This document shows positions 28,486-48,779 of a stretch of 64,000 bases of DNA, one piece after another (position 1 is the first letter of the stretch; the number at the start of each line of letters is the position of its first letter). The notes beneath the pieces are model-generated. The model was not told the DNA's origin. It ran no database searches and saw only the letters and a list, made by a program, of their open reading frames with translations. The translations under genes and the position numbers were made by a program. Origin of the DNA: a virus. The DNA is taken from the IMG/VR virus record IMGVR_UViG_3300025684_000016, positions 10,842-74,841 of that record. The stretch is one strand, 5' to 3'.

Positions 28486-29970
28486 TTAAGCTACATATGT
28501 CGTTATCTCATTTTGTTCTGCTCTAACAAATGACTCATTAAGTGACCATGCGAATGTATAAGATACATTTTCACCATCAGTAGAATAATAAGATGGGTGT
28601 ATTCCAACCGCAACAGTACGAGTACCGATAGGAGGTATTTCTATAACCCATTGGGATCCACCATAAGCTGGATTACCACTTGATATTGTGCTTTGATAGT
28701 TAGCATTTTGAGTTCCTCCCTGAATCCCCACATATATTTGGTCCCCATCTTGAGTCACATTTGAGTACACAATTTTCGCCATAGCGTCAAAAGACTGATT
28801 ACTTCCACTATATGTTTTAGCCATCATCCTAACGTAAATTGTTTCATCTGAACCATTGTAAATACTATGAACCTTCCCACTCCCTTGTGGAATGTTGTAT
28901 TCCCCAATAGGTCCTTGACCATCGTAAACGGGGAATGAGGAACCCTCTGAACCCGAAACAAAACCTTTAATTATAATATTTTGGTTGGTTGGAGGATTTG
29001 CTTCAGGAGTTGGTTGTGGTGTCGCTTCAGGGGTTGGTTGTGGGGTTGCGTTTGGTGTTGCCACTGGTGTCGCATCAGGAGTTGGTTGTGGCGTTGCGTT
29101 TGATGTTGGTATTGGTGTTGCGTTTGGTGTCGCATCAGGAGTCGCGTTTGGTGTTGTGTTTGGAGTTGGTTGTGGGGTTGGTTGTGGAGGACATGGGTCA
29201 AAATCCTCAATAAAGTTACCATTAGGACAACCATTATATAGTTCTTCTTCAGTGGATAATCCCATATCTTTTATTATTCTAACCCAACTAACATCAGTAT
29301 GACATGAAGAACCCACACAATTTTGATTAGCTCCAGACCATATACATGCACAATCAAACGAAAAGTCAATAAATCCATTTGGGGAGTTAGCTGCAATACT
29401 CTGAGCTTGTTGTGATGTTATTGATAACGCGTTATACCTATCACCTGAGCTAGCACCAGGATAATTAGGGTAAGTAGGTGGTCGATTTACATCGTCATAT
29501 ATTCCACCCGCATTATTCATATTAACCTGACCAATATTTACATTATTCGCCATAATGTCGAACTTCGCCCTATTACATCCATGACCACCACTACAAGGTG
29601 ATCCATTTAAACCACTATTATTATATTCAACAACAAACGTTAAGGAATTAATACAACTTTCTAAAACAGTTTGAGTGGTTTGGGGTGTTGGTGCAGGATT
29701 AAAAAATTCAACGAAATCCGCACATATTTCACAATCAACACTCGGTGATTTTATTAGTAAAACTTGATCTAAACAACCCGTACTAACTAATTTTAAACCA
29801 AACTCTATTATACTATCATCCACAGTAAAGGTAACAGGACTTGTTGTAACTCCCGCATAAACTAAGTTTGTGGCATTACCTGTGGTTGTTCCACTATATA
29901 TATCAACAGGGAAATCAGTCAACGAATGACTATTATCTAAATTTATATTTACCCTTATTAATTTACTCAT
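28486..29970 (-). CDS. Accessory virion protein: small N-domain, Cys-rich domain, ATPQPTP linker, beta C-domain (494 aa)
   Basis: Translated architecture; lies within the structural block. Confidence 0.7.
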   Translation of the reverse strand: MSKLIRVNINLDNSHSLTDFPVDIYSGTTTGNATNLVYAGVTTSPVTFTVDDSIIEFGLKLVSTGCLDQVLLIKSPSVDCEICADFVEFFNPAPTPQTTQTVLESCINSLTFVVEYNNSGLNGSPCSGGHGCNRAKFDIMANNVNIGQVNMNNAGGIYDDVNRPPTYPNYPGASSGDRYNALSITSQQAQSIAANSPNGFIDFSFDCACIWSGANQNCVGSSCHTDVSWVRIIKDMGLSTEEELYNGCPNGNFIEDFDPCPPQPTPQPTPNTTPNATPDATPNATPIPTSNATPQPTPDATPVATPNATPQPTPEATPQPTPEANPPTNQNIIIKGFVSGSEGSSFPVYDGQGPIGEYNIPQGSGKVHSIYNGSDETIYVRMMAKTYSGSNQSFDAMAKIVYSNVTQDGDQIYVGIQGGTQNANYQSTISSGNPAYGGSQWVIEIPPIGTRTVAVGIHPSYYSTDGENVSYTFAWSLNESFVRAEQNEITTYVA

Positions 29971-29995
29971 ATTTTTTTATTTTATTTCTAATTAA

Positions 29996-31807
29996 TTAGA
30001 CAGGTTCTAAACCTTCATCACGACCACCGCCACATTTATTTGTGGTTCCATAATTACCATTTTTTTGGAAAAGTAATTTTTCACTACCTTCTGTTGATTC
30101 ATCTGCGACCATATATGTACCATCAGACGAATATCTAAAGACTGTTGGTGTTCCAGACCATATAGAATTAGGGTGTATTGTGTATGCACCACCACCACCA
30201 TTTATAATCTCATTATCTGATAGTGCAAATGTTGATTTAACTATATTTTTCCCATCTGCATTGGTGGTGAACCATGATGTGTTATAAGTTACATAAACTC
30301 TATTTTCTAAAATACCATCATTACCTTCATCACAATTCGCGTTGTTTGGTGCTGAAGTTGTGTTAGATAATAAAATGGCAGATATCTCTGTCGTCTCTGT
30401 TGTAGGACTTGGAGTTGGTTGTGGGGTTGGACTTGGTTCTTGTTCATATGTACAATTACGATTTTCAGTACATGACCCTCCACTTGGTGGTCTTTCTACA
30501 CCGGATGGGTCTATCACTGCCGCACCTCCACCAGACTGACCGAAATCAAACCATAGTGGTGTTGTTTGAGAACATACACCATATACCGATCCACTCACCC
30601 CTTGATATACTGCAAGAGTAGCCAAAAGATTTGAGAACGGTGTAAGTATTGCTGTTTCACCACCTTGGAAGTAATCTAATCCCTGATTAGTTGTGTCGAC
30701 GTTATTAGGAACAAATACAAAGTTACAGGTTAATGCACTAACCTCTGTTGTGGGACTTGGAGTTGGTGATGGGCTCGGAGAAGGAGATGGGCTTGGTGTC
30801 GGATTAGGTGATGGACAAATACCTCCAACACAATCTGAACCTATACTATAACTTAATTTAGCGTCCGACACCGTTATATTTTGACCACTACCACACACAC
30901 TAAATGTTTCTTGAGTATAAGTCGTTCCTGTTTGAGGGACTCCCGAACAATCATCGTAACCGTAATATCTTGCTCCGCTTGAGTTATGAGAGAACTCTAT
31001 ACAAACACAAGGTCCTTCAGTTGGTGTTGGTGTAGGAGTTGCAATGTTAATATCAACATCAAAGTCACAATTTTCTGTAACTGTTGGTGTAGGTGATGGA
31101 GATGGTGTTGGACTACTTGAAGGTGTTGGACTTGGTGTTGGACTTGGTGTTGGAGTATTATCACAAACACCATCAGTACATGTTCCGTAAACGCCGTAAG
31201 TTACTTTTTCAGCAACTGATATTATACTTTGTGCACATACGTGAAATGTTATTTCCTCCATTGGTGGAGTGTCAGACGTTGCATTTACTGTCACACCACT
31301 ACAATCAACATATGAGTAACTGAAATAACCCTGACGATTACTATTAATTTCGAAACATTGACACGCCACCTCATCCGTAGGTGTTGGAGTAGGGCTTGGT
31401 GATGGGGTTGGACTTGGTGATGGACTATATTCCACAAAATTAACCGTGAAATTACAATCAGTCGTTGGTGTTGCGGTTGGTGTTGATGTTGGGCTTGGTG
31501 TGGCAACAGGACTAAATGGTGGACAGTTTTCACAATCAATATTAATTAACTTAACTTGAAAACCACCTTGTCTTTTAGGTAATTCAGATGGTGGTGGTGT
31601 AACGTAAAAATCACAGTGTACCAAAAAGATATATAAAGGACCTTCATATGTACCAACATCAAATGTGTGTGGTAAACTATGTGATCCAATTGATTGTGCA
31701 CTTACAGGTATTATATATGGATCACCGTTGTAGGTTGTACCCGTATATATTGTGAATTCATCACATACACCATTTTCATATAGATTATTTACCGTTATAA
31801 GACTCAT
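29996..31807 (-). CDS. Accessory virion protein: Cys-rich modules separated by PS/PT linkers (603 aa)
   Basis: Two CxCxE...YxDCSG...VC...C.GG/DG.C modules and one [12 protein letters not shown] peptide. Confidence 0.7.
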   Translation of the reverse strand: MSLITVNNLYENGVCDEFTIYTGTTYNGDPYIIPVSAQSIGSHSLPHTFDVGTYEGPLYIFLVHCDFYVTPPPSELPKRQGGFQVKLINIDCENCPPFSPVATPSPTSTPTATPTTDCNFTVNFVEYSPSPSPTPSPSPTPTPTDEVACQCFEINSNRQGYFSYSYVDCSGVTVNATSDTPPMEEITFHVCAQSIISVAEKVTYGVYGTCTDGVCDNTPTPSPTPSPTPSSSPTPSPSPTPTVTENCDFDVDINIATPTPTPTEGPCVCIEFSHNSSGARYYGYDDCSGVPQTGTTYTQETFSVCGSGQNITVSDAKLSYSIGSDCVGGICPSPNPTPSPSPSPSPSPTPSPTTEVSALTCNFVFVPNNVDTTNQGLDYFQGGETAILTPFSNLLATLAVYQGVSGSVYGVCSQTTPLWFDFGQSGGGAAVIDPSGVERPPSGGSCTENRNCTYEQEPSPTPQPTPSPTTETTEISAILLSNTTSAPNNANCDEGNDGILENRVYVTYNTSWFTTNADGKNIVKSTFALSDNEIINGGGGAYTIHPNSIWSGTPTVFRYSSDGTYMVADESTEGSEKLLFQKNGNYGTTNKCGGGRDEGLEPV

Positions 31808-31826
31808 TTAATAATTTCTGTATTTC

Positions 31827-31834
31827 TATAAATA
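31827..31834 (-). promoter_or_regulatory. Putative late promoter motif TATTTATA
   Basis: 19 nt upstream of ATG 31807, after a terminator. Confidence 0.6.
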
Positions 31835-31870
31835 CTTTGGAATCAAATTAACACAAAGAGAATAGTATAT

Positions 31871-31898
31871 AAAAAAACCCCCACCATGGAGGGTTTTT
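31871..31898 (-). terminator. Intrinsic terminator (possibly bidirectional)
   Basis: AAAAACCCTCCATGGTGGGGGTTTTTTT on the minus strand. Confidence 0.75.
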
Positions 31899-31924
31899 CA
31901 GATATTATAATACTTGTCTTTTTA

Positions 31925-32722
31925 TTACTCACCACAATGTAAAAAGTCATCACAACCAGGAACGATAGGTATACGTGATATGTATCCATTTTCACTTCCA
32001 GGAGGTGCAGTAAATGTGGTTGATATTACAGTTGCACAATACGTCGCACCACCACATCCACTATTACTGGTCCCCCTAAACTGTACAACATCACCTATAG
32101 AATATCCCGGATCGGACACGACAGTAAGGTTACCATTCTCACAATACACAATCTTAGGTACATGATAGTCCTGTGAGTCGTTACATCTCTCAAGTCTATA
32201 GTAAGTCTCAAGTTCGGTTGTTGGACTTGGTGTCGCACTTGGTATTGGTGTAGGTGTGTAAGTTGGCATTTGAGTTACATTTGGTGTTGCACTTGGATTA
32301 GGTGTTGCATTAGGTGTTGCATTTGGTGTTGCACTTGGATTAGGTGTTGGTTGTGGTGTTGCACCATTTGTTGGTAGTGGTGTTGCATCAGGTGTTGGTT
32401 GAGGTGTTGCATCAGGAGTTGGTTGAGGTGTTGCACCATTTGTTGGTTGAGGTGTTGCACTTAATGTTAAGGGATATTCCACAATATTTGTTGGACAATC
32501 TTTTATCATAGTTGCATTATTATTATAAAAAATAACACTTGTTGCACTATCAGGTACCGTTATTAGTACACCTCCCTGAACTTGAGCTAATGTTAAATTA
32601 GTTGCCTGATTACTTGTTCCATAGAGGAGTGCTTGGTTACCATTCGTTGATGACGTATGGTATATTGTATACGGACCATTGTTGGTTCCTGAAGTTAACG
32701 TTACTGTGAAATGTCTTGCCAT
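31925..32722 (-). CDS. Accessory virion protein: shared N-domain, ATPQPTP linker, Cys-rich C-domain (265 aa)
   Basis: N-terminus MARHFTVTLTSGT...YTIY...VPDSATSVIFYN is paralogous to the N-terminus of the 2045-aa protein. Confidence 0.75.
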   Translation of the reverse strand: MARHFTVTLTSGTNNGPYTIYHTSSTNGNQALLYGTSNQATNLTLAQVQGGVLITVPDSATSVIFYNNNATMIKDCPTNIVEYPLTLSATPQPTNGATPQPTPDATPQPTPDATPLPTNGATPQPTPNPSATPNATPNATPNPSATPNVTQMPTYTPTPIPSATPSPTTELETYYRLERCNDSQDYHVPKIVYCENGNLTVVSDPGYSIGDVVQFRGTSNSGCGGATYCATVISTTFTAPPGSENGYISRIPIVPGCDDFLHCGE

Positions 32723-32737
32723 TTTATTACTTTTATA

Positions 32738-32745
32738 TATAAATA
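32738..32745 (-). promoter_or_regulatory. Putative late promoter motif TATTTATA
   Basis: 15 nt upstream of ATG 32722. Confidence 0.6.
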
Positions 32746-32776
32746 CTTTATTCTTTCTTATTATCTATTACCTTAA

Positions 32777-33913
32777 TTAACAACTTGGTATACTATAACC
32801 TAAATTATTAATCGCCGTAATTATAAGTCCCATATAATATTGTGGACTACTCCCTGGTGTAACACCATAGGTATTATGCACTACAGATTTATCAGATAAC
32901 CCATACACACCACTATAGTTACCTAAACCACCCTCAACCGCTTCCAATAGATTTTTAAAGTATAGATACTGACCTGTGGGTTGAGTTTGAACTTGAAAAA
33001 TCTCACCAATAAGGTAATTGGTTGGATTATTATCAATGTTATTTCTTAAAGATGTTATGTCAGTATTAAAAGTACTGGTTCTGTTAGTGGTGTTGTTCCA
33101 TCCAGAAGTAGAACCACCATGATATATTGAAGCCCCTTCGTCTTGGAATGATAAGTTTATGACTTTAGTAATTGATGATGTAGTACCAGTCGTTGCTAAA
33201 CAAGCGTAACTTCTTTCCCCGAAATTCAATGATGACATATTTAAAACTCTTACCCTACTATCATATAATGCCGAATCATTGTTGTAAAACGGTAATAAAC
33301 AGTTTTTAAGAATGGTAGATGCCATAGTATTTAATGGGGCTTCAGTGGTACCCATAGAACCTGAATCATCAAAGAATATATTAATTTCAGTCTTGTCGTC
33401 TATGACCTCACCTGTTGGTGATGGGGTTGGACTTGGTGTTGCGTTTGGTGTTGCGTTTGGTGTTGCGTTTGGTGTTGATGCCAACGTTGGTTGTGGGGTT
33501 GGGGTTGGACATATTAATTGAAGATCTACCCCAAATTCAATCCTATCGTAACAATCAAATGCCTTACTATCATGAATGTATATGTTATGAATAACATATC
33601 TACTCCTTAAATCATTCTCGTGAACATCAATATCATTTACGTTATCCTCCAACTTTATCCAATACTCAGTATCAAATTCTAATTCAGATACGACATTTTC
33701 ACATGTAGTTCCCGATCCTGGTGGTGGAACAGTTGGGTCATCGTTAGTCATACATATCGGATTTGACATATAGTCTCTAACATTAGATGATGGCCACGCA
33801 CCATTAACCTCAGGACCTTCAATTTTCTTGAAGTACCCGTAGGGTGATGTTCCAATACTTAAGTTAAACTTGTTTGGAGAAACAATATCATATAAACGTA
33901 CAACTAATCCCAT
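32777..33913 (-). CDS. Accessory virion protein with C-terminal vWA-like domain (378 aa)
   Basis: INIFFDDSGSM MIDAS-like DxSxS motif after an ATPN linker; paralogous to the C-terminus of the 2658-aa protein. Confidence 0.75.
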   Translation of the reverse strand: MGLVVRLYDIVSPNKFNLSIGTSPYGYFKKIEGPEVNGAWPSSNVRDYMSNPICMTNDDPTVPPPGSGTTCENVVSELEFDTEYWIKLEDNVNDIDVHENDLRSRYVIHNIYIHDSKAFDCYDRIEFGVDLQLICPTPTPQPTLASTPNATPNATPNATPSPTPSPTGEVIDDKTEINIFFDDSGSMGTTEAPLNTMASTILKNCLLPFYNNDSALYDSRVRVLNMSSLNFGERSYACLATTGTTSSITKVINLSFQDEGASIYHGGSTSGWNNTTNRTSTFNTDITSLRNNIDNNPTNYLIGEIFQVQTQPTGQYLYFKNLLEAVEGGLGNYSGVYGLSDKSVVHNTYGVTPGSSPQYYMGLIITAINNLGYSIPSC

Positions 33914-33919
33914 ATGTTA

Positions 33920-33927: not shown

Positions 33928-33952
33928 CCCAATAATATAGATTACTTTAAAT

Positions 33953-34006: not shown

Positions 34007-34540
34007 TTATATTTCATTACAATTGTCCCCTTGACTAATAGGTACATGTGTTACCGCCTTCGGTGTAGTACCATCAAATATCCATACATTCGAATTCTGG
34101 AAAGTACCTTGTCCATCTACTCTGATTGTATCTGTTCCACTTGGTAAAAACCCTCCACCACTTATAGTATTCCATGCGGCTTCACTAATTATAACATTTG
34201 CCGGTGCTTCACCATCATTTCCACACTTATTGAATCTGAGATTTGAAACAGGGTCGTCTCCACCACCTTCAGTTGGTGTTGGAGTTGGTGCCGGTGTATT
34301 ATTTAAACCTGTCCAACTCACTGAGTTATCACAATCACCTGTAGAAGTTACTGTACCACCCGTTATCGTATCGGCCACTTGATATGTAACACCAGCCGTT
34401 AACTGTGCTTTAGTCACTGAAGTAGCAATTGTTGTATCCGAAGGACTCCCTCCCGAATGTTTCCCGATAATTGTGAAATTATCCGCTTGTGTTGTACCTG
34501 TGTACAATGCGTTTAATGTAAATGTTACTGAATATGCCAT
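34007..34540 (-). CDS. Accessory virion protein: shared N-domain, short PT linker, small C-domain (177 aa)
   Basis: FTII...ATSVTKAQLTAGVTYQVADT...STGDC resembles the N-domains of its neighbours. Confidence 0.7.
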   Translation of the reverse strand: MAYSVTFTLNALYTGTTQADNFTIIGKHSGGSPSDTTIATSVTKAQLTAGVTYQVADTITGGTVTSTGDCDNSVSWTGLNNTPAPTPTPTEGGGDDPVSNLRFNKCGNDGEAPANVIISEAAWNTISGGGFLPSGTDTIRVDGQGTFQNSNVWIFDGTTPKAVTHVPISQGDNCNEI

Positions 34541-34564
34541 GTTTTCTTTTTTTTATCTGTTTAT

Positions 34565-34619: not shown

Positions 34620-37600
34620 CTATATTACACCACAATCAAAATTATTATCACATGGCGAACCGTTAGATGAAATATCTGCAAACTCTGAAATGAATGAATC
34701 ACCACTTGGACCATATTTAAACATATTACTTAGTGTTGGTTTACTACAGAAATAAAAAGTATTCACACCTCCATTCTCCATGGATAGTTGTGAATTTAAG
34801 TTTACTGAGGTTTCACCTGCCTCACAATCGTTGTTTATATAGTATAAGTCTTGGTTAGAAGCGTTGGTTAAATAACTACTCGGAACCGAAACTTCAATAC
34901 AATTACATTTACTTACTCCCTCATCACCAAACGTACTTTGTATTGGTGAAGTTCCCACAGGACATCCATTTGCGTCTGTAACAACAACATAGTAATATCC
35001 TTCCACCAAGTTACTAAATGTTTGTGATGGGTTACCCGATGTTACACCTGTAATGGTTGCAACTAATGTTCCACCACCTACCGTGTATGGTGATGTTGTG
35101 TCATTGTAAAGTCTGTAAGTTTTATTCCATGTTCCACCTGACGATGTAACTACTATGTTACCATTAGGTCCCACAGTAAATGATGAAATAGTTGCAGTAC
35201 CCGCAGTTGGTTGTGTCACATTTATTATATATGCTTTTTCACATCCATCACCATCTTTAATTGTAATTACATGGTTACCACTACTTAATGAGGAGTATGT
35301 TTTAGGGAATGTTGTACTATAAGTTCCTGAACCTATTTTAGAATTATATGTTCCTCCGTTTCCACCCGTTGGACTTGAGACTGTTATTTCACCATCACTA
35401 CCTCCATTACAACTCACACTACTCATTACAAATGTTGCACTTGGGTCTGTCTTATTAAGTTGTGCACTTCCTGTTCGAACACAATCAGAAGTGTCTTTAA
35501 CCCTTATTAAATATATTGCTTCACTTAAAGTGGAAAAAGTATTACTCGCTTGGTAACTAAATCCATTATTTAAAGAATATGTGTATGATCCACTACCACC
35601 ACTTGCGTTAATTACTATTTTACCATCATTATCTCCACTACATGAAGGGTGTGTTAATGTGGTAGTAAAACTAACCTGTGTTGGTACCGTTATTGTTCTT
35701 GTATATGTGCTTGTACATCCACTACCATCTTTAATGTATATGGTATATGAACCAGCAACTAAACTACTATATGTTTTAGGGAATGTAGTCGTATATGACC
35801 CACTACCCAATTTTACACTATATGTTCCACCATTTCCACCTGATGGACTACTAACAGATATTGATCCCGTACCACCATAACATGTAGGGTTTGAATGAGA
35901 AACTATTGCAGATACCGCCGATTTAGATAATGTTCTACTAAGACTTTTAGTACATCCATTTTCATCTGTTGCAATTAAAGTGTATGTACCTTCCTCTAAA
36001 TTTGTTTGGGAAAGATCCGTAATTGCCACACCATTTTGTGTGTATGTTTTTGTTCCTGTTCCACCACCAACAGTCCATGTAATTGATCCATCACTACCTC
36101 CAATACATGTGGGGTTGGAGAATGTACTACTAATGGTAATGGCAGTGGGTTCTGTTATTGTTTTTGAATATGATCGAACACACCCCTCACCATCTCTTAC
36201 TTGTATTGTATAAGAAGTGGCACCTAAACTACTATATGTTTTAGGGAATGTCGTTGTCCATGACCCAGTATCTAATCTAACACTATATGTTCCACCATTT
36301 CCACCTGATGGACTACTAACCACAAAAGATCCTGTAACTTGTTTATTACACAATGGATTGGTAGTTACTATAGTTGCCTGTGGGAGTGATTTAGATAACG
36401 AATAACTTTGAGTGTCTATACATTGATTGGCGTCTTTAACGTATGCAGTTCCACCACCAATAGTTAAACCTGTAAACGTACCTGATGTGTAATAATTTAC
36501 ACCATTTATTGAATATAACTTACTTCCTGAACCACCTGTTGAACTAATAACAATCTGTCCGTCAGTAGACGATGTACATGTTGGATCTGTTACCACTACA
36601 GAAGCAACTAAGTTTGTAGGTTGGGTAACTGTTACAGTATATGATCTACTACATAGTTCTGAATCCCTGACTTGTATTGTATAATTACCCGCAGTTTTAG
36701 TACCGAATGTGACAGGTGTACTGAAATTAGTCCAATTACCACTTGAAAATTTAAATTGGTACTGTCCCCCATTACCACCTGTTATAGATGCCAATGTTAT
36801 ATCACCATCATTTCCACCGTAACAACTAACATCATTATTATATATTGATGCGGAAACAATTGATTTGGTTAAAGTTCTTGTTGATGACGAAGTACAGTTA
36901 CCACCATCTTTAACTTTTATTGAATACGTTCCAGTACCTAAACTATTAAAGACATTACTACTCTGATAGTTTGTACCACCATCTTTAGAATATACTTTAG
37001 TACCTGAACCACCAGACGCTGACACTGTTATTGAACCGTCGGTATCGTCACTACATGTTGGATTAACAAATGTTGTTGTATGAGTTAGTGTTGTTGGTTC
37101 TGATATGGTTTGTGTGTATGTTTTTACACATCCTTCACCATCTTTAATGTATATGGTATATGTACCAGGTACTAATGATGTATATTCTTCAATAGTGTTA
37201 TTTGGTAGGTCTATATAGGTACCTAATTTATTAATTTTTACCTGATATATTCCACCGTTTCCACCCGATGGATTTGCCACCGATATAGTACCATCACCAG
37301 CCCCATTACATGTGACATTTGTAAATGACCACGTTAATATAGGTGCTGATTTTGATAATGTTAAACTACTTGATCCTGTTGTTGTACATAAATTACTATC
37401 TCTAACGTCTAATGTGTAATTTCCAGTTGTTAAACCTGTGAAGGTTCCCGAAGGACCCCACTGAAAACCATCTTTAGTGTATTCATACGTACCACTACCT
37501 CCCGTTGCCGTTATAACTATCTCACCATCCGAACCGTCCCAACATGTTGGGTCAGTATGTGTTGATGTAAACGATACTTGAGTTGGTTCTGTTATTGTTA

Positions 37601-40600
37601 CTGAGAATTCTCTTTCACAGAAACTCCCATCCTGTATTGTTATCGTGTATGTACCCGCAGATAAATTACTTATTGTACGAGTAGTCCCATCATCATCTTC
37701 AAATTCTCCATCATCAAATTTTATCTTATACGGACCACCATTACCACCACCAATTTGAGTTATTCTAATTTCACCCGAACTGAGTCCATTACATAATGTA
37801 TTTGTTTTGGATAGTGATAAAGTTATTGCCGACTTAGTTAGTACTACCGTTCTTGAACTTGTACACCCATTTTCGTCAGTTGCAACTAAAGTGTAATTAC
37901 GTTCATCCAACCCTGTTTGGGAAAGATCCGTAATTGCCACACCATTTAACGTATATGTTTTGGTTCCTGTTCCCCCACCAACGGTGAAAGTAATTGTACC
38001 ATCAGAATCACCATCACATGTTGGATCTGTATGAGTATCGGATATGAATATTGCTGATGGTTTTGTAATTGTTTTACTTATAGTACCTATTTCACCATTA
38101 CTATCTTTTATGTAAATTGTGTATGTCCCTGAATCGAGATTTGAAAATGTCGTTGATGTTTGGTAATTAGTACCGTTAATTGAATATGTATATGGTGAAT
38201 CACCTCCCGTAGTTGAGGTAACCTCAATACTACCATCCCTTAAGTTGTTACATGTAATATTGGTTACATTCGCAGTACCTGATACAGATATATTTGTTAT
38301 TGATATGGTTATTTTCTTTTCATACCATAACCCTCCTTGATCTGTCGATCTTACTCTTATTGTGTATGAATTCTTGGTTTCATAATCAAAAACTTCTTTG
38401 CTTTTTAAGGTTGTTCCGTCTATATAGAATGAACCATTGTTGGTATCTCCAAGACCACTTACTAATGTATATGTAAATGTATTTCCTGCGTCAGGGTCTG
38501 TTGTGGATAATGTTCCTACAGTGGACCCTGTTACCACATTCTCATCAATAGATGAATTAGATAATGATATGTTTGTTGGAGTTTCATTAACATTAGTTAC
38601 ATTAATAGTAAACGATTCTTCTCTATATAAACCACCTTGGTCTGTTGATCTTACTCTAACTGAATAAGTGTTCTTAACTTCATAGTTGAATACTTCACTA
38701 CTTTGAATATTATTACCACTTATGTTAAATGAACTATTATTAGTGTCACCCACACCACTTACTAATGTATATGTAAATGTATTTCCTGCGTCAGGGTCCG
38801 TGGTTGAGAATTGACCAACCGTAGTACCCGTAGAACTATTTTCAGGAATATTATTATCTGATAAAATTATATCTGTAGGTGCTTCGTTTGCGTTGGTGAT
38901 ATTAATTGTTACTGATCTTTCGTGTGTTAAACCACCTGAATCTGTTGCTTTGACTCTTATTGTATACGAGTTTTTAACTTCGTAGTTAAACACCTCGTTA
39001 GATGTCAGAGTACCATTACTATTCAAACTAAACGAATCGTTGTTGGTATCTCCAAGACCACTTACCAATTCAAAAGTATGTGTATCGCCCGCATCAACAT
39101 CGGTGGCGGTGAATGTAGTCACTGTTGTTCCTGTCGATTGATTTTCTTGAAATGACACTGTTGATGGTGTTATGTTAGAAGGGGTTTCGTTAAGATCTGT
39201 AATCAAAATCGTAAATATACCTATGTAGGTTAATCCCCCCGAATCAGTAGTTTTTACTCTTATAGAATAACTGTTCTTACCTTCATAGTTATAAACTTCT
39301 TTACTTTTTAGAACACCACCACTTGTTAATGTAAATGAATCATTATTAGTATCTCCTAAACCACTAACAAGTTCATAAGAATGACTATCTCCCGAATCAA
39401 CATCCGTACTACTGAAAGTACCTATTGTTGTTCCTGTAGATTGATTTTCCGCAATACTATTACTTGATAAGGATAAATTTGTTGGTGATTCATTAACGTC
39501 AAGTACTGAAATTGTAAATGTATCCGTATAAGTGTTATTACCACTATCCGTAACCGTCACTTCAATACTATAAGAGTTTTTAACCTCATAATTAAAAACT
39601 ATTGCATTTTTGAGTACACCCGTACTTGATAAGGCGAACGCCGAATTATTATTACCACTACCCGTTAGTGCGTATGTGAATGTTTCGTTACTATCAACAT
39701 CTAACCCTGAAAAAATACCAATTGTTGTCCCCGTTGATGTGTTTTCACTTTGTGAATTATTACTTAAGGTTAAACCGTATGGTGTTTCATTAACATCAAC
39801 TATGTCTACCGTAAATTCTCTTGTATTACTTAAACCACCATCATCAGTTGCTTTAACATATAATGTGTATAAACTTTTTACCTCGTGATTAAAAACTTGT
39901 GCATTAGATAAAACCTCATTAGTTAACGTAAATGAATTATTGTCGGGGTAATTTGCACTATCTGTAAATTCCCACGTAATGGTTCCACCCTCAGTATCGT
40001 CAGCAACTAAACTACCAATAGTAGTTCCTGTTGCAGTATTCTCTGTTTGACTAAAATTTGGTAATCTAATCCTTGGTGATGTATTTGTTGTTACGTCTAC
40101 ATCAAAGTCACAATTAATTGTTGGTGACGGAGATGGACTCGGTGTAGGGGTTGGTAATGCCGTTGGTCTTGGAGTCGCGCTAAACGTCGGAGACGGAGAT
40201 GGACTCGGTGATGGACTCGGTGACGGAGACGGACTTGGGCTCGGTGATGGGGATGGACTTGGGCTTGGTGTAGGTGATGGACTCGGTGTAGGAGTTGGGG
40301 TCGCAATATCAATGTCAACATCGAAATCACAATTCGGAGTTGGAGTTGGACTTGGGCTCGGGCTTGGTGACGGAGACGGACTCGGTGACGGAGATGGACT
40401 CGGTGACGGAGACGGTGTAGGTGTAGGGTTAGGGGTTGAACTCGGTGATGGTGACGGTGTAGGTGATGCCGTTGGATTTGGTGTTGCACTCGGTGTTGCC
40501 GTTGGTAACGGAGTTGGTAATAGAATGGTGTCCTCAATTAGACACGAGTCGTTATATAATAATACCGACACCGCACTATCAGGTATCTCAACCTTTACAC

Positions 40601-40757
40601 CTGGTGACGTAATTAAATCATTATATGTAACACCAGTTGCTGGTAATGTGGTACTAACTCTTGTGGCAATATTTGACGGACCCACCAAATCATAGTAGAT
40701 TGTGTAATCACTATGTGATGTCCCTGATGTAATTAATATGTTAAATATTCTTGCCAT
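34620..40757 (-). CDS. Giant adhesin-like virion protein: N-domain, PS/PT linker, 6 cadherin-like repeats, ~14 SprB repeats (2045 aa)
   Basis: xNExP...EN...GT.(I/V)G...TDxDxG...(N/D)YE.K.SY.I.V..TD.GG cadherin pattern x6; (P/V)(T/S)C.G..DG.I...GG...Y...L..G.Y.I...D..GC SprB pattern. Confidence 0.85.
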
Positions 40758-40802: not shown

Positions 40803-43800
40803 CTAACAACTTGGAATTGTATAACCTAAATTATTCATTGCGTTTACTATTAGATCCATATAATATTGTGGTGTACTTCCTGCAATCGTATCTTGAACAC
40901 AACTAACTTCAGTTTTATCACTTAATCCCGCAGTTCCCGAATAATAACCCGTTCCACTAAACAACGCATTCATAAATGCTTGATATTGTGGGTATGCATC
41001 GTTTCCACCACTTAAAGTGTCCACTTGGAATATTATTCCTCTATGTGACGTTGAGCTGGTTGCGTTGGTCAAATTAGTTCTTAAGAGTGTAATATCACTA
41101 TTACCCACTGTACTACCATTTGTCCAACCACTAACCGTTGGTGATTCTGCTTCGTATGAGTTACTCTCATCTGCGAATGCTAAATTCACCACATTCCTTG
41201 ACGGATCTGATGGTTGAGTTGCAATCCAACTAATCGCCCTTTCATTACTAATACTTGTTATTGTTACTCTTGAATTATATAAGTTAACATCATTATCATA
41301 GAATGGTAATAAACAATTCTGTAAAAGAGTACTCCTCATTGTATTAAGTGGACTTAGTGTTGAGTTCATTGAACCTGAACTATCAAAGAATATATTTATC
41401 TCCGTATCTGTACTAACCACTATCTCTTCCTGAATAACCTCAGTCGCTTGAACCTCAAAAGTACAATCACATAATATGTGTACATATTCTAAATCAAATA
41501 ACGTCTGATTCCATTCGGCAACAACAAACACCGCATTATTATTAGAGTCAATAAATCTAATTCCTGTGTCGTATAAAATATTTGTACCATGAGGTGTTAA
41601 ATTACCTAATGAGTGATCCACACTACTAACTTGGGTACCGACAGGTGTTACGTGTTGTCCAACACAACTTGTGTTAGATCCACCAGAATAACCACGTACA
41701 TAAACTAAACATGATGTGGAATCATACCACCATTCTTCACCGTCAGTATCAACACCAGGTGTCTCAGCACAATACCCACCTAAATCATATATTCCAGCTC
41801 CACTAACTCCTGTTCCTGTGGACACGAATAAACCACTAAAGATTTCAGTTCCACAATTTGGTGGACAACCTACCGATGTAGGACTTGGACTCGGACTCGG
41901 TGATGGACTCGGAGAAGGAGATGGACTTGGTGTAGGACTCGGACTCGGAGATGGACTTGGTGTAGGACTCGCAGTTGGGTTTGGTGTAGCACTTGGGCTT
42001 GGTGTTGGTGTAGGAGTTGCAATATCTATGTCAACATCAAAATCACAATTCGGAGTTGCCGAAGGTGATGGAGACGGTGATGGTGATGGTGTAGGACTTG
42101 CAGTCACACTTGGTGTTGGTGATGGACTTGGGCTTGGTGATGGTGTTGGTGATGGTGACGGACTTGGTGTAGGACTCGCAGTTGCATCAGGTGTCACACT
42201 TGGTGATGGTGATGGACTTGCAGTTGGATTTGGTGTCGAACTTGGACTCGGCGTAGGAGTTGGTGTAGCAATATCTATATCAACATCGAAATCACAATTC
42301 GGAGTTGCCGATGGTGATGGGGTTGGAGTTGAACTCGCGGTCGTACTTGGTGATGGTGACGGACTTGGTGTAGGACTCGCAGTTGTACTTGGACTTGGTG
42401 ACGGTGTAGGTGATGGACTTGGCGTAGGAGTTGGGGTAGCAATATCTATATCAACATCGAAATCACAATTAACCGTTGGTGACGGTGAAGGAGATGGTGA
42501 TGGTGACGGACTTGGTGATGGGCTCGGAGATGGGCTTGGCGTCGGACTCGCAGTCACACTTGGTGATGGAGATGGACTCGGACTTGGTGATGGTGTAGGA
42601 CTCGCACTCGGCATAGGAGTTGGAGTTGCAATGTTTATATCAACATCGAAATCACAATTTATTGTTGGTGTAGGAGATGTCGACGGACTCGGTGATGGTG
42701 TAGGAAATTGTGTAGCATCAGGTGTTGCCGGTGGTGTTGCAGTTGGGTCAGGTGTTGGTGCTGGTGTTGCCGAAGGTGATGGGGTTGCAGTTGGGGTAGC
42801 AATATCTATATCTACGTCAAAGTCACAATTCGGGGTTACCGACGGACTTGGGCTTGGTGATGGTGATGGTGTAGGACTCGCAGTTGTACTCGGACTCGGT
42901 GATGGAGATGGAGATGGGGTTGGACTTGCAGTTGTACTCGGACTTGGTGATGGTGTAGGACTCGCACTCGGCATAGGAGTTGGAGTTGCAATGTTTATAT
43001 CAACATCGAAATCACAATTCGGGGTTGCTGATGGTGATGGACTTGGTGATGGACTTGGCGTCGGACTTGCCGTTACACTCGGACTCGGTGATGGAGAAGG
43101 AGATGGTGTAGGACTTGGGCTTGGTGTAGGACTACTTGAAGGTGCAGGTGTTGGTGTCGCAATGTTTATATCAACATCAAAGTCACAATTAGCCGTAGCC
43201 GATGGACTTGGGCTTGGTGATGGTGATGGTGATGGTGTAGGACTCGGGCTTGGTGTAGGAGTTGGGGTAGCAATATCTATATCAACATCGAAATCACAAT
43301 TAACCGTTGGTGTAGGACTTGCCGTTACACTTGGACTTGGTGATGGAGATGGGCTCGGACTTGGGCTCGGTGATGGTGTCGGACTACTTGAAGGTGCGGG
43401 TGTTGGAGTCGCAATGTTTATATCAACATCAAAGTCACAATTTTCTGTAACTGTTGGTGTAGGTGATGGAGATGGTGTTGGTGTAGGAGTTGCAATATCT
43501 ATGTCAACATCAAAATCACAATTAGCGGTAACTGTTGGTGTAGGTGATGCAGACGGTGAAGGAGTTGGAGTTGCAATGTTAATATCAACATCGAAATCAC
43601 AATTTTCTGTAACTGTTGGTGTAGGACTCGGGCTTGGCGTAGGAGTTGGAGTTGCAATATCAACGTCCACGTCGAAATCACAATTTTCTGTAACTGTTGG
43701 AGTTGGAGATGGGCTTGGCGTAGGAGTTGGTGTAGCAATATCAACGTCCACGTCGAAATCACAATTTATCGTTGGTGTAGGACTTGCAGTCACACTTGGT

Positions 43801-46800
43801 GAAGGGGTCGGAGTCGCAATGTTTATATCAACATCAAAGTCACAATTTTCTGTAACTGTTGGAGTTGGAGATGGTGTTGGAGTCGCAGTTGGTCCCGCAA
43901 TATCTATATCCACGTCGAAATCACAGTTCGGTATATCTATATCCACGTCGAAATCACAGTTCGGTGTTGCCGAAGGTGATGGTGACGGTGTAGGACTTGC
44001 AGTCACACTTGGTGAAGGACTTGGTGATGGTGTCGGACTACTTGAAGGTGATGGTGATGGTGTCGGACTTGCAGTCACACTTGGTGAAGGACTTGGTGAT
44101 GGGCTCGGTGTAGGAGATGGGGTTGGACTTGCGGTCACACTTGGTGTTGGTGCCGGTGTTGCAGTTGGTGGTTGTGTTGGTCCTGGTGTGGGTGTAGGTA
44201 TGTCATTACAATCCTCAGTATAAATTGGTCGATTTAAATCTTCAATTGAAGGTATAACAGCACAATCTAATTGGTCTTGGAAATATTGTTGAGCACTTAA
44301 TGATAAATCCTCAAATGTTTGTTGTGGATAGTGAACTAAAATACAGTCGTCATCATCTCCGTTATATAAAATAACCTGTGGATATGCCACTTCAGACACT
44401 TGTGTCATTGTTAAGTGATAAAATAATTCACGTTCACAATATTCTAAATCTAAACTCGTAACTTCAATTGGGAAACCAAATTCATTAATAAGATAATCAC
44501 CTTTTATGAAGTAATCCTTATCATATGTACAACATGGGTCAACACCTTGTTCTAAAGGTCTAACAAATAAATCTTCAGGGTATTTTTCTGTAAATTCCCA
44601 CAAACCACTCACTTTAGTTAATACCCTCACCTTTGTATTTGGTAGGATTCTAAAACGATCATTAATGACGTTCATTTTAGTAGTCCCCAAACAATCAATA
44701 TTATCTACAGTAACTTCAGTGTAGTTCTGACCAAATGAGAATCCATTTAAAACTGAGTCTCTAAAATCTTCAGAACCAAACGGACATGACAAATATTCAC
44801 CCGACAACAATCTATCACCATCATTCACTTCTTGAGCCTTGATTCGTACTATATTATTACCATTAATTAATGTCTGTATATCTTCCCATGTTGTGGTTGA
44901 TGATATAACCACCGCATTGTCTACAATTTTTAAAACTGTACTATCTTGTTTTATTCCATAATCAAATGTTGGTCGATACTGTACCTTAGGATGTATAGTA
45001 TATCCAAGGTAATTATCACAATATGTTATACCACTTAGAGTCTCTATTGCCACATTACCATTTTCTGGTAATTCACCAGGTAAAAAAGATTCTACAGAAT
45101 ATTCAACATAATGACTTTTTGGTTCTGTAACCGTATCATTAATTGGATCCCATTCTAATTTTTGTTGTAACCCCTCAATTCTTACTTTTTGATCACAGTT
45201 TGCTGCGTCGGTGATTGATATATCAATGACATCATGTTCTCTTACATTTTTTACTATAAATGTACAACCCGACACATAATCAACCACATAAGATGGTGGT
45301 TCTGAAATACCCTCATTGTAATCACCAAGACAATTAATGAATATGTTAACCGGCCAATCAGTATTGTATGGTGGACATGTATCACACACATCACCATTAT
45401 CAACAGTATCTTCATTTCCAAATGTTATACCTGATACCTCAAAATAAACGTCTGACACTAACACACATTCGTCAGGATCTTCAGGTAATGTATACATTGT
45501 ACCATCACCATATACCTTAACTTTAGGGTCACATTTTGTTGTTCCTGTTAGGTAAACCGAATCAAAATAGAAATCAAACGTACTCGGATCTAAACAATCA
45601 AAATCAACAGGTGTATATGTCACATAAGGTGATCCCGTTGCACTATATAATTGTAAATTATAAACGTAGGGTACAATTGCAATTTTTTGAATACCATCCG
45701 TATCTGTAAAAATTCTATAATCTAATAAAGGTGCGTATTCATAATCATATGTTTCAGTCACTTTCGCAACACCACTAACATCATCAGTTGTATCACTTAG
45801 TTCGTTTGTGAATGCCGTAGATATTGATGTATTACCACTTACTTTAAATTCTTCCCATCCAGCATGGTTGTTAATTAACCCACCATGACCAGTGTATTTT
45901 GTTTTCTTATAATATGTCTTATTGATTTGATTATCAATAATATCTTTTATTTCGTCAATCCAAAGACATTCTAAAATCTCCAATTGTGGTTCTAAATAAC
46001 ATTTAAAATCACATAATAGTGGTAAGTGTACCGTTTTATCAAATTGGGTACCTCCACTTGTCACTGATTCTTGTGTTAATGTTGTTATCCCTGAAAATTC
46101 AAGAAACTCAACAGTTTGAGCACAATTATCATTATCAAAGTATACATTTTCAATGTCAGTACATTCAGATGTTATTGTGTATGGATCGAATAACCCCGCA
46201 TGATTATGATTAACAAGTATTTCATCACATGTTGAACCAGTTACTGTTTGTGTCTCACCACTAATGACAATATCAGTATCACCAGTAAATGTCAACCCAT
46301 TAAAGTCAATATGAAGTGTGTAAGTCACACCACTTACAACTGTAAGTCCCCTGAAATTATCATGGTCACCTAAAATTGTTTCTAAATCTTCTTCAATTAC
46401 ATCCTCAAACTTAGGAAAAAGGTTTTGTGTAAACTCATTTGGTAAACATGGTTTCTCATATTCAAACTTAGATCTTCCAATTCTACCGTTTTCAATGATA
46501 TTACCACCAGTCCATAGTGTTGTGGCAGGAACAAATTGTTCAATCACTTGTGTCCAATAAGGACTCATTCGGTTTATAAATTCACTAACAGTAGGTAAAC
46601 TATATGGATTGGACACCTTTGATAGGTAACCCTCATATATGTCTTCTAACTGTATATAATTCTTTTTATATCGAATTATGTGTGTGTTACGTATTTGTTC
46701 GTTTAAAACGTGTTCAGTGTACTCAGCAAACGTGAATCCTGTCTGTGGTTCTAACGTTGCACGACCAAACGACACTTTTAATTCTCTACTTTGTCTGTAT

Positions 46801-48779
46801 ATGTCATTATCAACACCTTGTGACGATGAAAGATAGATTTGAATATTTTTTCTGTTAAGGATTCTTGAATCTTCATCTTCTAAAACTTCTGTCTTATCAT
46901 TGTCAACCGTGTTATGTAATTCATAACCGTAATCTAAACCCGAAAACTGTCTATATAGGTCAAAATAGTCCTCACCATAGGTGAAATCTTTGTTTTTAGT
47001 CTTTATAACTTTAGGGTTCAAAGTCAAGTTTGAATTCTCAGTATCTAACTCAGTTGATGATCTGTGGTCTAATGTTATATCATACCATCCAGCACCTTTT
47101 TGGAAGAATGTGTCTTGTTTTTCACTTTCTATACCCTTTATATCCCCATATTGTGATTTACCCGACACAAGACTTACAGGGTATTCACCCTCACTATAAA
47201 GTGTGGAACCTGTGGTAGTTACACTATTGTAACTAAAACCTGTTGTTGATAATGATCCCACTTTAAAGGTTTTATCACCTTGAATAAGGTCATAAACATC
47301 ACTATCAATGTCACTCGTTGTCTTTTTTACTTGATCGTAACGGTAAACATATTCGTTAATATTAATCAACGGTTCAGGTGCACCAATAAATCTTAAAAAG
47401 AATTCAATTGCTTTCCTTGTACCTTTTGATTTGTAAATGTGTGAAAGGTTGATGACAAGTCTTCTGTAAAACTCAGTCTCTGCTTCCACCATATTCATTC
47501 CAACACCAACACCATCGTACTGACTGTCAACTCTTGTGTAAAGTGAATCCTGTAGATTCTTTTCGTCAAATAGGTTTAAAGTGTCTAAACCAAGTGTGTT
47601 GGATAAGTTTTTTAAAAGTACGTCAGGTAGGTTATTAATACGATCATAACTCACATTTCTCATGTAAGCGATATTATCAATAAACTTCTTAACCTGATCA
47701 AAACTATGACCAAGTAACTGAGTTGCCGAGTCAAATCTTCTATCCTCAGTATCAAATTCGTATAATGATGCGGTCGTTAAAAATCTTGAAACTACATTCG
47801 ATTTGTAATTATCAATACGTTCACCGAGTATACTTAACTCTTCAACATAATTTATGTATGCACTTCCCGATATCTTTAAATTCCATTTATCCCTATATAG
47901 TGGCCACGAAATCTCATTAGTTTTTAGTTCTGTTTTTGAACCATCGAAACTATCTTCAGGTGCTCTGAACTTTGCGGTGTATTTTATTTTAGATTCACGA
48001 TTTAATAAAACCGATTCTAAGTCATCTAACCCTTCAAAAAATTCTTCAACAACACTATTGTTCGGTCTTATTAAAAAACTATCGTCATATGTTGATGCCC
48101 CACCAAATGGAGACCCTTTTACCGTTAGACTTACTAACCCACTTAAATTAACCTCAGTATAACTTATAACCTGATATGAAATCGAATTTACTTCTAATTC
48201 ATATCTCTTAAAAGAATCGTAAAAATTCTTAATAGTGTTCGTTGTCTCAGGTAATGTATTACTCTTTGGTTTTTCAAGAATAACATCTAACGGATTGAAT
48301 ATTTTACTATTTTCAATCTGAAATGAAGTTACATTGGTTTTCTTATTATATGTAGAATTTAACGCGGTAAATAACGTAGATGCCGTTGGGGTTTCTTTAT
48401 CAATATAAATTCCAGCTGGAAACTTACCAATGATTCTTGATACGGATACCTGTAATCTTTGTTTTAGTGAACCAAATAAAGATTTACCACCATCTTCATT
48501 AGATTTTCTAAAGGTTACCTTATCCTTTCTTCTTTTAGTTGTAATTGTAGAGACACCACTTTCAATTGGTTCCTCTTCTTTAATGTCCTCAAATGTGAGG
48601 TATTCAGAAAATGGTTTAGATTGGAATGATTTTTTATCCCTTTGGGGAATACTTTTATCCAATGCAAAGTTCGCAGAGGTCAGCTGACTTGTACCATCGG
48701 TAATTTGATTACCGACCAAGTTGTCATTAAAGGTTTCCCTCCCACTCGCCGCTTGACTTGGAACTTTTCTTTTCGCCAT
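40803..48779 (-). CDS. Giant baseplate wedge (gp7/P2-I-like) protein with Hint-like domain, PS/PT repeat array and C-terminal vWA-like domain (2658 aa)
   Basis: [14 protein letters not shown] and [19 protein letters not shown] baseplate-wedge motifs; 16 NCDFDVD repeats; [11 protein letters not shown] near the C-terminus. Confidence 0.75.
41876..44200 (-). repeat. Coding repeat array: 16 x NCDFDVD(I/V)(D/N)I separated by variable (PS/PT)n linkers
   Basis: Plus-strand unit ~gcaatatctatatcaacatcgaaatcacaatt, with mostly synonymous variation, between ggtgatgga/ggactcggt low-complexity tracts. Confidence 0.95.

What the first reader, a model, noticed from the sequence alone, without database searches (positions are those of the whole stretch)
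28486..48779. Candidate modular scaffold-and-dock tail-appendage system: 16 Cys-beta-strand peptides on a baseplate protein plus a family of linker-tethered accessory proteins
Seen: the 2658-aa baseplate-wedge protein carries 16 copies of N-C-D-F-D-V-D-(I/V)-(D/N)-I, an alternating acidic/hydrophobic strand with an invariant Cys. The copies are separated by Pro/Ser/Thr linkers whose length varies freely while the peptide stays fixed. The peptide recurs twice in the 2045-aa protein and once in the 603-aa protein, with looser variants elsewhere ([33 protein letters not shown]). Six downstream genes are built as small N-domain + PT linker + different payload (cadherin/SprB, vWA, Cys-rich modules). 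Inference: a peptide of about 10 aa cannot fold alone. It may be a docking strand (beta-strand addition, possibly disulfide-locked) for the accessory N-domains, as in cellulosome scaffoldins, or it may self-associate into knots in an oligomeric fibre. Copies on accessory proteins would allow branching. I know of no described phage appendage with this design.
Basis: partly seen in the sequence, partly recalled or inferred. Interest (0 to 1): 0.85.

Follow-up and report, generated by a model that had tools for sequence, protein, structure and literature searches.

The report
Graded Cys-strand beads on phage tethers
An uncultured marine T4-like phage strings a strongly conserved ten-residue, one-cysteine beta-strand 16 times along a proline/threonine thread, with spacing that widens from base to tip; the strand looks like a self-sticking knot in the thread, not a socket for neighbouring proteins, and its function is still only inferred.

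Summary
The 2658-aa protein has 16 copies of NCDFDVD(I/V)(D/N)I, the 2045-aa protein has 2 and the 603-aa protein has 1.

The copies differ heavily at synonymous sites but hardly at all in amino acids (pN/pS about 0.1), so the peptide is under selection. Relatives down to about 40% identity carry variant arrays of 7-22 copies. Across all of them only Cys (100%), Phe (92%) and the alternating hydrophobic face are conserved; the acidic face is not.

New here: spacing rises from N to C in all 38 non-redundant arrays (median Spearman rho 0.86).

The headline reading, a scaffold that docks the accessory N-domains, meets its own refutation test. Syntenic relatives (L187, L191/L196, L241, L251/L255) keep the accessory N-domain genes but have no peptide in the fetched locus. 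The N-domain also models as a complete FN3/Ig-like sandwich.

The peptide is a portable strand-plus-linker cassette. It also sits inside accessory proteins (up to 10 copies) and is exchanged by recombination.

My best reading (0.4) is a self-association or cross-linking node in flexible adhesin-bearing fibres.

The "baseplate wedge" and "vWA" labels are unconfirmed. The scan met this design before on other genomes. I found no published description.

The parts
40803..48779 (-). 2658-aa giant protein. It has a conserved N-terminal core (aa 1 to about 1527), then a Pro/Ser/Thr tether carrying the peptide array, then a C-terminal Cys-rich domain with a DxSxS motif.
   Evidence: ORF and translation. 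There are 53 homologues at 36-88% identity, all unnamed. Pfam, PHROGs and PDB give no hit.
44199..48779 (-). Conserved N-terminal core, likely the part that attaches to the virion.
   Evidence: It aligns over aa 1-1527 in 26 viral loci at 57-97% identity. It always follows the gp25-like, gp6-like, 1271, 587, 268, 370 and 304-aa gene block.
42021..43961 (-). Array of 16 NCDFDVD(I/V)(D/N)I strands in PT/PS linkers, with spacing 11 to 83 aa that rises from N to C.
40803..41840 (-). C-terminal domain of the giant protein. A class-2 strand ([11 protein letters not shown]) sits just before a DxSxS segment, and the domain is a paralogue of the C-terminus of the 378-aa protein.
   Evidence: Translation. 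The 378-aa protein matches the same region of the L003 and L019 homologues at 43-48% identity. No vWA hit in Pfam or PDB.
34620..40757 (-). 2045-aa accessory protein: type-A N-domain (aa 1-80), PT linker with two peptide copies (window 40305-40334 and 40086-40115), six cadherin repeats and ten SprB repeats.
34007..34540 (-). 177-aa accessory protein with a type-A-like N-domain and a short PT linker.
   Evidence: Sequence. A1 profile hit at 2.7e-20.
32777..33913 (-). 378-aa accessory protein: type-D N-domain, PT linker and a DxSxS domain paralogous to the giant protein's C-terminus.
31925..32722 (-). 265-aa accessory protein: type-A N-domain, PT linker and a small Cys-rich module.
   Evidence: Sequence. 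A1 profile hit at 9.7e-31.
29996..31807 (-). 603-aa accessory protein: type-C N-domain, one class-2 strand (DCNFTVNFVEY), one exact peptide (window 31043-31072) and Cys-rich modules.
   Evidence: It shares 62 nt of exact identity with an array copy.
28486..29970 (-). 494-aa accessory protein: type-B N-domain ending in DCEICADFVEF, then a PT linker and payload.
57276..59580 (-). gp6-like (Baseplate_J) and gp25-like baseplate genes. They place the cluster in a T4-like baseplate module.
   Evidence: PHROGs and Pfam hits.

Best explanation
What it is. The ten-residue peptide is a selected amphipathic beta-strand. One face is Cys-Phe-Val-(Val/Ile)-Ile and the other is polar, here acidic. It is set inside Pro/Thr/Ser tethers.

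Origin. It is an "orphan" copy of the Cys-led boundary strand that ends the small FN3/Ig-like N-domains and that directly precedes payload domains. Strand plus linker form a portable cassette that recombination spreads among the tail-appendage genes of this uncultured marine T4-like phage clade.

Most likely function. It does not hold the accessory N-domains. It acts as a self-association or cross-linking node: strands pair with like strands of neighbouring chains or tethers through the hydrophobic face, possibly locked by the invariant Cys. This bundles the otherwise floppy threads that carry adhesin-type domains away from the baseplate.

The gradient. Node density falls from base to tip, which would give a stalk that is stiff near the base and loose at the end.

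Shown: the sequence pattern, selection, distribution, spacing gradient and recombination. Inferred: strand pairing, disulfide formation, oligomeric state and virion location.
For: - Selection: synonymous sites among copies are nearly randomised while amino acids are fixed, with pN/pS about 0.1 in nine of the ten loci tested and 0.27 in the distant L053.
- Conserved residues: an unbiased scan of PT linkers found 922 short islands. Of these, 720 contain Cys and 715 have exactly one. Cys is 100% conserved, Phe 92% and Val/Ile at +4 91%. The acidic positions become G, I, S, Q or T in other lineages. The conserved part is therefore a hydrophobic strand face plus a thiol.
- Portability: the strand sits inside accessory proteins' own linkers in variable number (10 in L059, 3 in L060, L070, L207 and L283), and directly before the first cadherin domain.
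- Copies match their own genome's variant across different proteins. For example, the Gly variant of L019 appears in both the giant and the cadherin protein.
- The N-domain's last strand and its linker junction resemble the peptide junction of the same lineage: YAPTPTPT against YIAPTPTPT, and IPAPSPTP against LAPSPTP.
- Complete arrays hold both odd and even copy numbers (13, 15, 16, 18, 19, 22). This argues against obligate intrachain Cys pairs.
- Tethers without the peptide carry as much or more hydrophobic residue, but dispersed as TxT(I/L/V)TPT: 14-26% against 13-16%. This suggests the threads need cohesive beta-prone content in every lineage.
- Spacing rises from N to C in 38 of 38 non-redundant arrays.
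Against: - No binding of any kind has been shown.
- The oligomeric state of these proteins is unknown, and they have not been shown to be in virions.
- Concerted evolution of the copies is at least partly explained by DNA exchange: exact matches of 18-95 nt between accessory and array copies.
- The spacing gradient does not follow from a simple in-register bundle, so the stiffness-taper idea is my inference only.
- One Cys per strand in a trimer could not be fully paired.
- The AF2 model of the 2045-aa protein's first 330 residues left both peptides unstructured, but its confidence is low (mean pLDDT 52.7).
Confidence: 0.4

Rival explanations
1. Scaffold-and-dock. Each strand is a docking site that adds to, or exchanges with, a beta-strand of the accessory N-domains. 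This would build a branched, cellulosome-like appendage, possibly locked by a disulfide.
For: - Six accessory genes share N-terminal domains followed by PT linkers.
- Each N-domain has one conserved Cys at the start of its last strand, and that strand resembles the peptide. Strand exchange is therefore physically conceivable.
- Copies on accessory proteins would allow branching.
Against: - Syntenic relatives keep N-domain accessory genes with no peptide in the fetched locus: L187, L191/L196, L241, L251/L255 and L247. The N-domains must therefore anchor elsewhere.
- Only 14 of 130 representative N-domain proteins carry a Cys island.
- The N-domain models as a complete 84-residue sandwich with its own last strand (pLDDT 82.7).
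- In L207 and L283 the same strand forms arrays in both the giant protein (8 copies) and the N-domain accessory protein (3 copies), so it is not specific to the scaffold.
- Pfam finds no cohesin or dockerin.
Confidence: 0.17
2. Intrachain compaction with hidden length. The strands of one chain stack on each other into a small cross-beta core, with the PT linkers as loops of growing size. The thread is stored compact and pays out under load or on contact.
For: - The shortest common linkers (9-13 aa; spacing 19-23) are about the length needed to return along a ten-residue strand (the geometry is my estimate).
- Loop size grows monotonically along the array.
- The strands are near-identical within a chain.
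Against: - Accessory proteins carry only one to three strands, too few to form a core.
- One strand always abuts the cadherin domain.
- AF2 gave no such packing, though at low confidence.
- Nothing in stacking explains why the loops should grow.
Confidence: 0.15
3. Multivalent sticker for an external ligand. The strands, with acidic face plus thiol, bind a host-surface component or divalent cations directly, so the thread itself acts as an adhesive.
For: - The alternating Asp pattern in this lineage resembles cation-binding loops.
- The phage lives in seawater metagenomes, which are rich in Ca and Mg.
- The payloads look like adhesins: cadherin and SprB repeats.
Against: - The acidic face is not conserved. 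It becomes Gly/Ile in L019, Ser/Gln in P0017 and Thr/Phe in L053.
- A hydrophobic strand face exposed to water is unlikely to be a soluble binding site.
Confidence: 0.1
4. Processing or modification signal. The [N/D]-C-[D/E]-F motif is recognised by an enzyme (cleavage, lipid or sugar attachment at Cys) or cleaves itself at Asn-Cys.
For: - Cys and its neighbours are absolutely invariant.
- An earlier AI note proposed a degenerate Hint-like segment just upstream.
Against: - Pfam finds no Hint domain on aa 1250-1600 even at E up to 5.
- No modifying enzyme was found among the window genes I scanned with PHROGs.
- The conserved alternating hydrophobic pattern after the Cys is not explained.
Confidence: 0.06

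Closest known systems
Cellulosomal scaffoldins (cohesin modules on Pro/Thr linkers, dockerin-bearing enzymes)
   Same: Repeated modules are separated by Pro/Thr linkers on one giant protein, next to a set of proteins that share a small terminal domain with varied payloads.
   Different: The modules here are 10 residues long, not cohesins of about 150 residues. Pfam finds no cohesin or dockerin. The shared N-domain persists in relatives that lack the modules.
Branched multi-receptor-binding-protein sets of phages (CBA120 tailspikes, G7C, K1-5-type adaptors) and the particle-binding N-domains of P22/Sf6 tailspikes (from my own knowledge)
   Same: Several appendage proteins share a small N-terminal anchor domain and differ in the payload. 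Foldseek lists the P22 and Sf6 tailspike N-domains among weak rows (probability 0.2-0.4).
   Different: Those systems have no Pro/Thr tethers and no orphan strands. The structural match here is not significant.
Plant extensins and other hydroxyproline-rich glycoproteins; mucin PTS regions interrupted by CysD domains (from my own knowledge)
   Same: Extended Pro/Ser/Thr rods are interrupted at intervals by short hydrophobic or Cys-bearing cross-linking motifs, which turn threads into networks.
   Different: These are eukaryotic, glycosylated and cross-linked by peroxidase at Tyr, or use CysD domains of about 100 aa. There is no sequence relation to the peptide here.
Donor-strand complementation or exchange in chaperone-usher and Bacteroidota type V pili (from my own knowledge)
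   Same: A short amphipathic strand completes or replaces a strand of an Ig-like domain of another subunit. The peptide resembles the last strand of the N-domain.
   Different: The N-domain here models as complete, with its own last strand. No chaperone or usher is present. The strands are internal and repeated, not terminal extensions.
HYR and SprB-type repeats of Bacteroidota surface adhesins
   Same: One Saprospiraceae open reading frame of unverified family has an in-frame [13 protein letters not shown] strand inside a Cys-containing stretch, and the neighbouring phage gene carries SprB repeats.
   Different: Here the strand stands alone between linkers, without the rest of the domain. The other single bacterial pattern matches were out-of-frame or isolated in-frame chance matches with no PT linker.

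Membership tests
Cellulosome-type cohesin-dockerin system | Cohesin modules on the scaffold protein | tested here: not met
   Pfam scan of the 2658-aa protein returned 0 families at E up to 0.01. The repeated unit is 10 aa long.
Cellulosome-type cohesin-dockerin system | Dockerin (duplicated Ca-binding loop-helix) on the docked proteins | tested here: not met
   Pfam found no dockerin in any of the six accessory proteins. The N-domain models as a beta-sandwich.
Cellulosome-type cohesin-dockerin system | Docked proteins depend on the scaffold modules (co-occurrence) | tested here: not met
   Accessory N-domain genes are present in loci with no peptide: L187, L191/L196, L241 and L251/L255.
Donor-strand complementation (pilus-type) | Acceptor Ig-like domain lacks its last strand and has an open groove | tested here: inconclusive
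   The AF2 model (pLDDT 82.7) contains a C-terminal strand at residues 74-79 within the domain. I could not inspect coordinates for a groove.
Donor-strand complementation (pilus-type) | Predicted or measured strand-domain complex | tested here: inconclusive
   The one complex job gave no verdict (see Tried and rejected).
T4-like baseplate module | gp25-like and gp6-like (Baseplate_J) genes adjacent | tested here: met
   PF04965 at 3.1e-09 and PF04865 at 2.8e-05; PHROGs call both baseplate wedge subunits.
T4-like baseplate module | The 2658-aa protein is homologous to a known wedge or fibre protein | tested here: inconclusive
   No hit in Pfam, PHROGs, a PDB profile search, cultured phages or the Atlas. 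Only conserved synteny supports the label.
Cadherin / SprB repeat adhesins | Pfam Cadherin and SprB repeats above the gathering score | tested here: met
   PF00028 at 1.8e-51 (6 stretches) and PF13573 at 2.1e-65 (10 stretches) in the 2045-aa protein.
von Willebrand factor A domain | Sequence match to vWA profiles or solved vWA domains | tested here: inconclusive
   No Pfam family at E up to 5 and no vWA chain in PDB at E up to 5. Only a DxSxS motif is seen. The fold was not tested.
FN3/Ig-like sandwich (accessory N-domain) | Structural match to FN3 or Ig domains | tested here: inconclusive
   Best VIA match is Z 5.3, rmsd 2.9 over 69 residues, to an FN3 domain. Foldseek found nothing at E up to 0.001.

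The most novel reading that the evidence does not exclude
The strand-plus-linker cassette is a new kind of building element for virus appendages. It would be a genetically portable "self-zipping bead". Its graded spacing would program a tapered, cross-linked (possibly disulfide-locked) or strand-exchanging tentacle network around the baseplate. Different adhesin proteins that carry the same genome-specific bead would then be tied into one branched structure.
Probability: 0.25. Interest if true: 0.85.

Novelty: new variant of a known kind. Interest (0 to 1): 0.62.

Why it matters
Phage appendages are usually built from folded trimeric fibres. Here a widespread marine phage clade uses threads hundreds of residues long, whose only ordered elements are ten-residue strands under strong selection, placed at steadily widening intervals.

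If the strands are cohesion points, this is a simple and evolvable way to tune the reach and stiffness of a host-searching tentacle. It could also tie several adhesins together.

There are practical consequences too. These arrays break short-read assemblies: many viral contigs end inside them. They also create long spurious antisense ORFs.

The cassette could become a minimal self-assembly tag if binding is shown.

Tried and rejected
- Complex prediction of the N-domain alignment (A1) with a 34-residue peptide segment alignment (A2): score 0.20, below the mark of 0.32, so no verdict. This is not evidence either way.
- AF2 of the first 330 residues of the 2045-aa protein (N-domain, two peptides, first cadherin): mean pLDDT 52.7 with the peptides unstructured. 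The confidence is too low to use.
- Identity of the giant protein's N-terminal core: nothing found in Pfam or PHROGs, a PDB profile search, the Atlas, or by blastn and tblastn against cultured phages.
- Pattern scan of bacterial genomes: apart from one Flavobacteriaceae "MAG" contig that is a near-identical phage, the single matches were out-of-frame or isolated in-frame chance matches with no PT linker.
I used the search for related loci instead.
Not supported, though the fold was not tested.
- vWA label: no Pfam or PDB sequence support.
- Younger units at the 5' end as the cause of the spacing gradient: the 81-nt units at the 5' end and the 360-nt units at the 3' end are equally diverged, both at 76%. 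Rejected as the simple cause.
- Metatranscriptome contigs cover parts of the gene (shares 0.47 and 0.24). They cannot show transcription, because DNA carry-over is possible.
- Two of three literature searches ran (one was rejected for a malformed term), and they found no description of the design. This was a limited search and does not prove absence.
Full report
**Context**

The window is part of a 74.8-kb contig of an uncultured T4-like myophage.
- All genes of interest lie on the minus strand.
- The block runs from ribonucleotide reductase, through a gp25-like protein (PF04965) and a gp6-like Baseplate_J protein, to five conserved unnamed genes (1271, 587, 268, 370 and 304 aa).
- The 2658-aa protein and six "accessory" genes follow.
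- Other window genes are typical T4-like functions: prohead protease, sigma factor, SbcCD-like nuclease and primase.
- The closest cultured phages match the gp6-like protein at only 25-29% identity, among them Flavobacterium phage immuto. None has a homologue of the giant protein.
- The DNA is held by many marine and seawater metagenome runs.

**Observation**

The count is exact:
- 16 NCDFDVD(I/V)(D/N)I in the 2658-aa protein;
- 2 in the cadherin/SprB protein;
- 1 in the 603-aa protein;
- none elsewhere in six frames.

The copies are not recent duplicates. Codons differ freely at synonymous sites, while NCDFDVD never changes. Among copies of one genome, pS is 0.63-0.87 and pN is 0.04-0.10 in nine of the ten loci tested; the distant L053 has pN 0.20. 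The tandem units are only 76% identical as DNA. The one exception is a perfect 33-nt duplication at 43900-43965, which created the pair of copies with a 1-aa linker.

**Distribution**

- The giant protein's N-terminal core has 26 relatives in IMG/VR and 53 in the large protein collection, at 36-88% identity and all unnamed.
- Relatives at 57-61% identity keep the array with 7-22 copies, as (N/D)CDF(D/E)(V/I)D(V/I)(D/N)(I/V/L).
- L019 uses NCDFG(V/I)(D/I)VDI, both in the giant protein and in its cadherin protein.
- Relatives at about 40% identity carry NCEFEVTAFV, DCSFDVEVDIL, DCDFSIQYVV/DCTFDFDVIV or ACDFTVNVTYI.
- Other relatives have PT linkers between true globular domains, pure linkers, or no tether at all.
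- I scanned PT linkers without assuming a motif and found 922 short islands. Of these, 720 contain Cys and 715 have exactly one. The no-Cys islands listed among the commonest are plain linker variants.
- Conservation by position: Cys 100%, Phe(+2) 92%, Val/Ile(+4) 91%, hydrophobic residues at +6 and +8, then x-T-P.
- The acidic face is therefore lineage-specific. The conserved part is a hydrophobic strand face plus a thiol.

**New observation: a spacing gradient**

- Spacing between successive strands rises from N to C. In the window it runs 11, 27 x6, 47, 37, 57, 63, 57, 63, 57, 83 (rho 0.93). In L014 it runs from 23 to 67 aa and in L016 from 23 to 61 aa.
- Over 38 non-redundant arrays, including distant peptide variants and one array in an accessory protein, every rho is positive. 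Thirty-two exceed 0.5 and the median is 0.86.
- Units at the two ends of the array are equally diverged, so "young short units at one end" is not the simple cause.
- I have no proven explanation. A stiffness taper in a cross-linked bundle is my inference.
- An earlier agent of this scan noted the same widening on another genome (e1-5409998).

**Test of the docking model**

The six accessory proteins do start with small domains followed by PT linkers.
- A profile of type A (the 2045, 265 and 177-aa proteins) finds 297 cluster representatives in 1.84 billion proteins, nearly always starting at residue 1.
- Of the 130 representatives that are at least 130 aa long, 84 have a PT linker right after the domain, but only 14 carry a Cys island.
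- Types B, C and D (the 494, 603 and 378-aa proteins) form their own families.

Syntenic relatives keep these genes without any peptide in the fetched locus:
- L187: a giant protein of 1820 aa with no tether, plus type A and type D proteins.
- L191/L196: 580 linker residues and no strand, plus types D, C and B and a homologue of the 766-aa protein.
- L241, L251/L255 and L247 show the same.

The caveat is that only up to about 10 kb on each side of the gene was visible.

Further points against docking:
- With a 47-sequence alignment the N-domain models confidently (pLDDT 82.7, pTM 0.70) as a compact sandwich that includes its own Cys-led last strand.
- Its fold matches are generic FN3/Ig (Z 5.3), with only weak rows for tailspike N-domains.
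- The strands are not specific to the scaffold. An accessory protein in L059 has 10. The cadherin protein of L060, a hybrid protein in L070 and the N-domain proteins of L207 and L283 have 3 each.

**What the strand is related to**

- One copy always sits directly before the first cadherin domain.
- A class-2 form, DC(T/N)F(E/T)V..(T/V)E, sits before the C-terminal DxSxS domain and after some N-domains.
- Each N-domain ends with a Cys-led strand whose junction to the linker resembles the peptide junction of the same lineage.
- I therefore read the peptide as an orphan copy of a domain-boundary strand that was duplicated together with its linker.
- DNA exchange between genes is ongoing: exact matches between accessory and array copies run from 18 to 95 nt, 62 nt for the 603-aa protein.

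**Mechanism**

A lone amphipathic strand must bury its Cys-Phe-Val-Val-Ile face. With docking to the N-domains weakened, pairing with like strands is the simplest partner. Four observations point the same way:
- the genome-specific matching of copies across proteins;
- the mix of odd and even copy numbers;
- the absolute invariance of the Cys;
- the dispersed hydrophobic residues in tethers that lack the peptide, 14-26% against 13-16%.

Together these fit cohesion or cross-linking nodes in flexible fibres that carry adhesin-type domains. None of this is shown biochemically. I give it 0.4. The rivals are docking by strand exchange (0.17), intrachain compaction (0.15), an external-ligand sticker (0.10) and a modification signal (0.06).

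**Population data**

Marine contigs near-identical to the window break up inside the array. They also show linker indels: 30 nt missing at 41905 and a 6-nt insertion at 42854.

**Novelty**

I found no published description (a limited search). The scan met the same design before on other genomes. One earlier agent read it as graded beads, two as donor-strand docking and one as a self-sticking tag. My distribution test argues against the donor-strand reading.

Noticed in passing
window 41716-44223 (+): An 835-aa open frame lies antisense to the array. It coincides with the local GC rise (0.48) and strong GC skew (+0.37) caused by Pro/Thr/Ser codons. It is almost certainly an artefact of the repeat composition and not a gene.
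   Followed up: partly
window 43900-43965: A perfect 33-nt tandem duplication produced the two adjacent peptide copies joined by a single Pro. The close relative L004 has one copy there.
   Followed up: yes
window 31043-31108 and 43377-43478: A 62-nt exact identity links the peptide region of the 603-aa gene and one array unit 12 kb away. This indicates recent gene conversion between different genes.
   Followed up: yes
L070 and L075 (contig CBFHJJ010000001.1, 248 kb, labelled as a Flavobacteriaceae MAG): A near-identical copy of this phage region sits in a contig binned as a Flavobacteriaceae genome. Either a phage genome was mis-binned or this is a weak hint at the host. In L070 the 494-aa and 603-aa genes appear as one hybrid gene with three peptide copies.
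   Followed up: partly
L191:10001-17200, L241, L251: Tethers in relatives without the peptide use a different linker style, with regularly placed hydrophobic residues (TPTLTITPTQSITPT, TPSVTPS). In L241 this style runs for about 2600 residues.
   Followed up: partly
window 26113-28413 (-): A 766-aa protein with no family hit is conserved downstream of the accessory genes, also in the distant L191 locus. It is probably a fixed structural member of the cluster.
   Followed up: partly
window 41905 and 42854: Natural-population contigs show a 30-nt deletion and a 6-nt insertion in the linkers. Many IMG/VR contigs end inside the array, so short-read assemblies systematically break there.
   Followed up: partly
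window 34620-40757 (-): Linker lengths in the cadherin/SprB protein are nearly the same in relatives at 57-89% identity: about 60 aa from the N-domain to peptide 1, and 73 aa from peptide 1 to peptide 2. This suggests the lengths are constrained.
   Followed up: no
L031, L041, L045 (other viral contigs): Unrelated-looking N-terminal domains are followed by PT linkers (for example, ending in CIIGIP). L031 and L045 also carry arrays of VCDFDVDLTII. The cassette may reach beyond the clade studied here.
   Followed up: no
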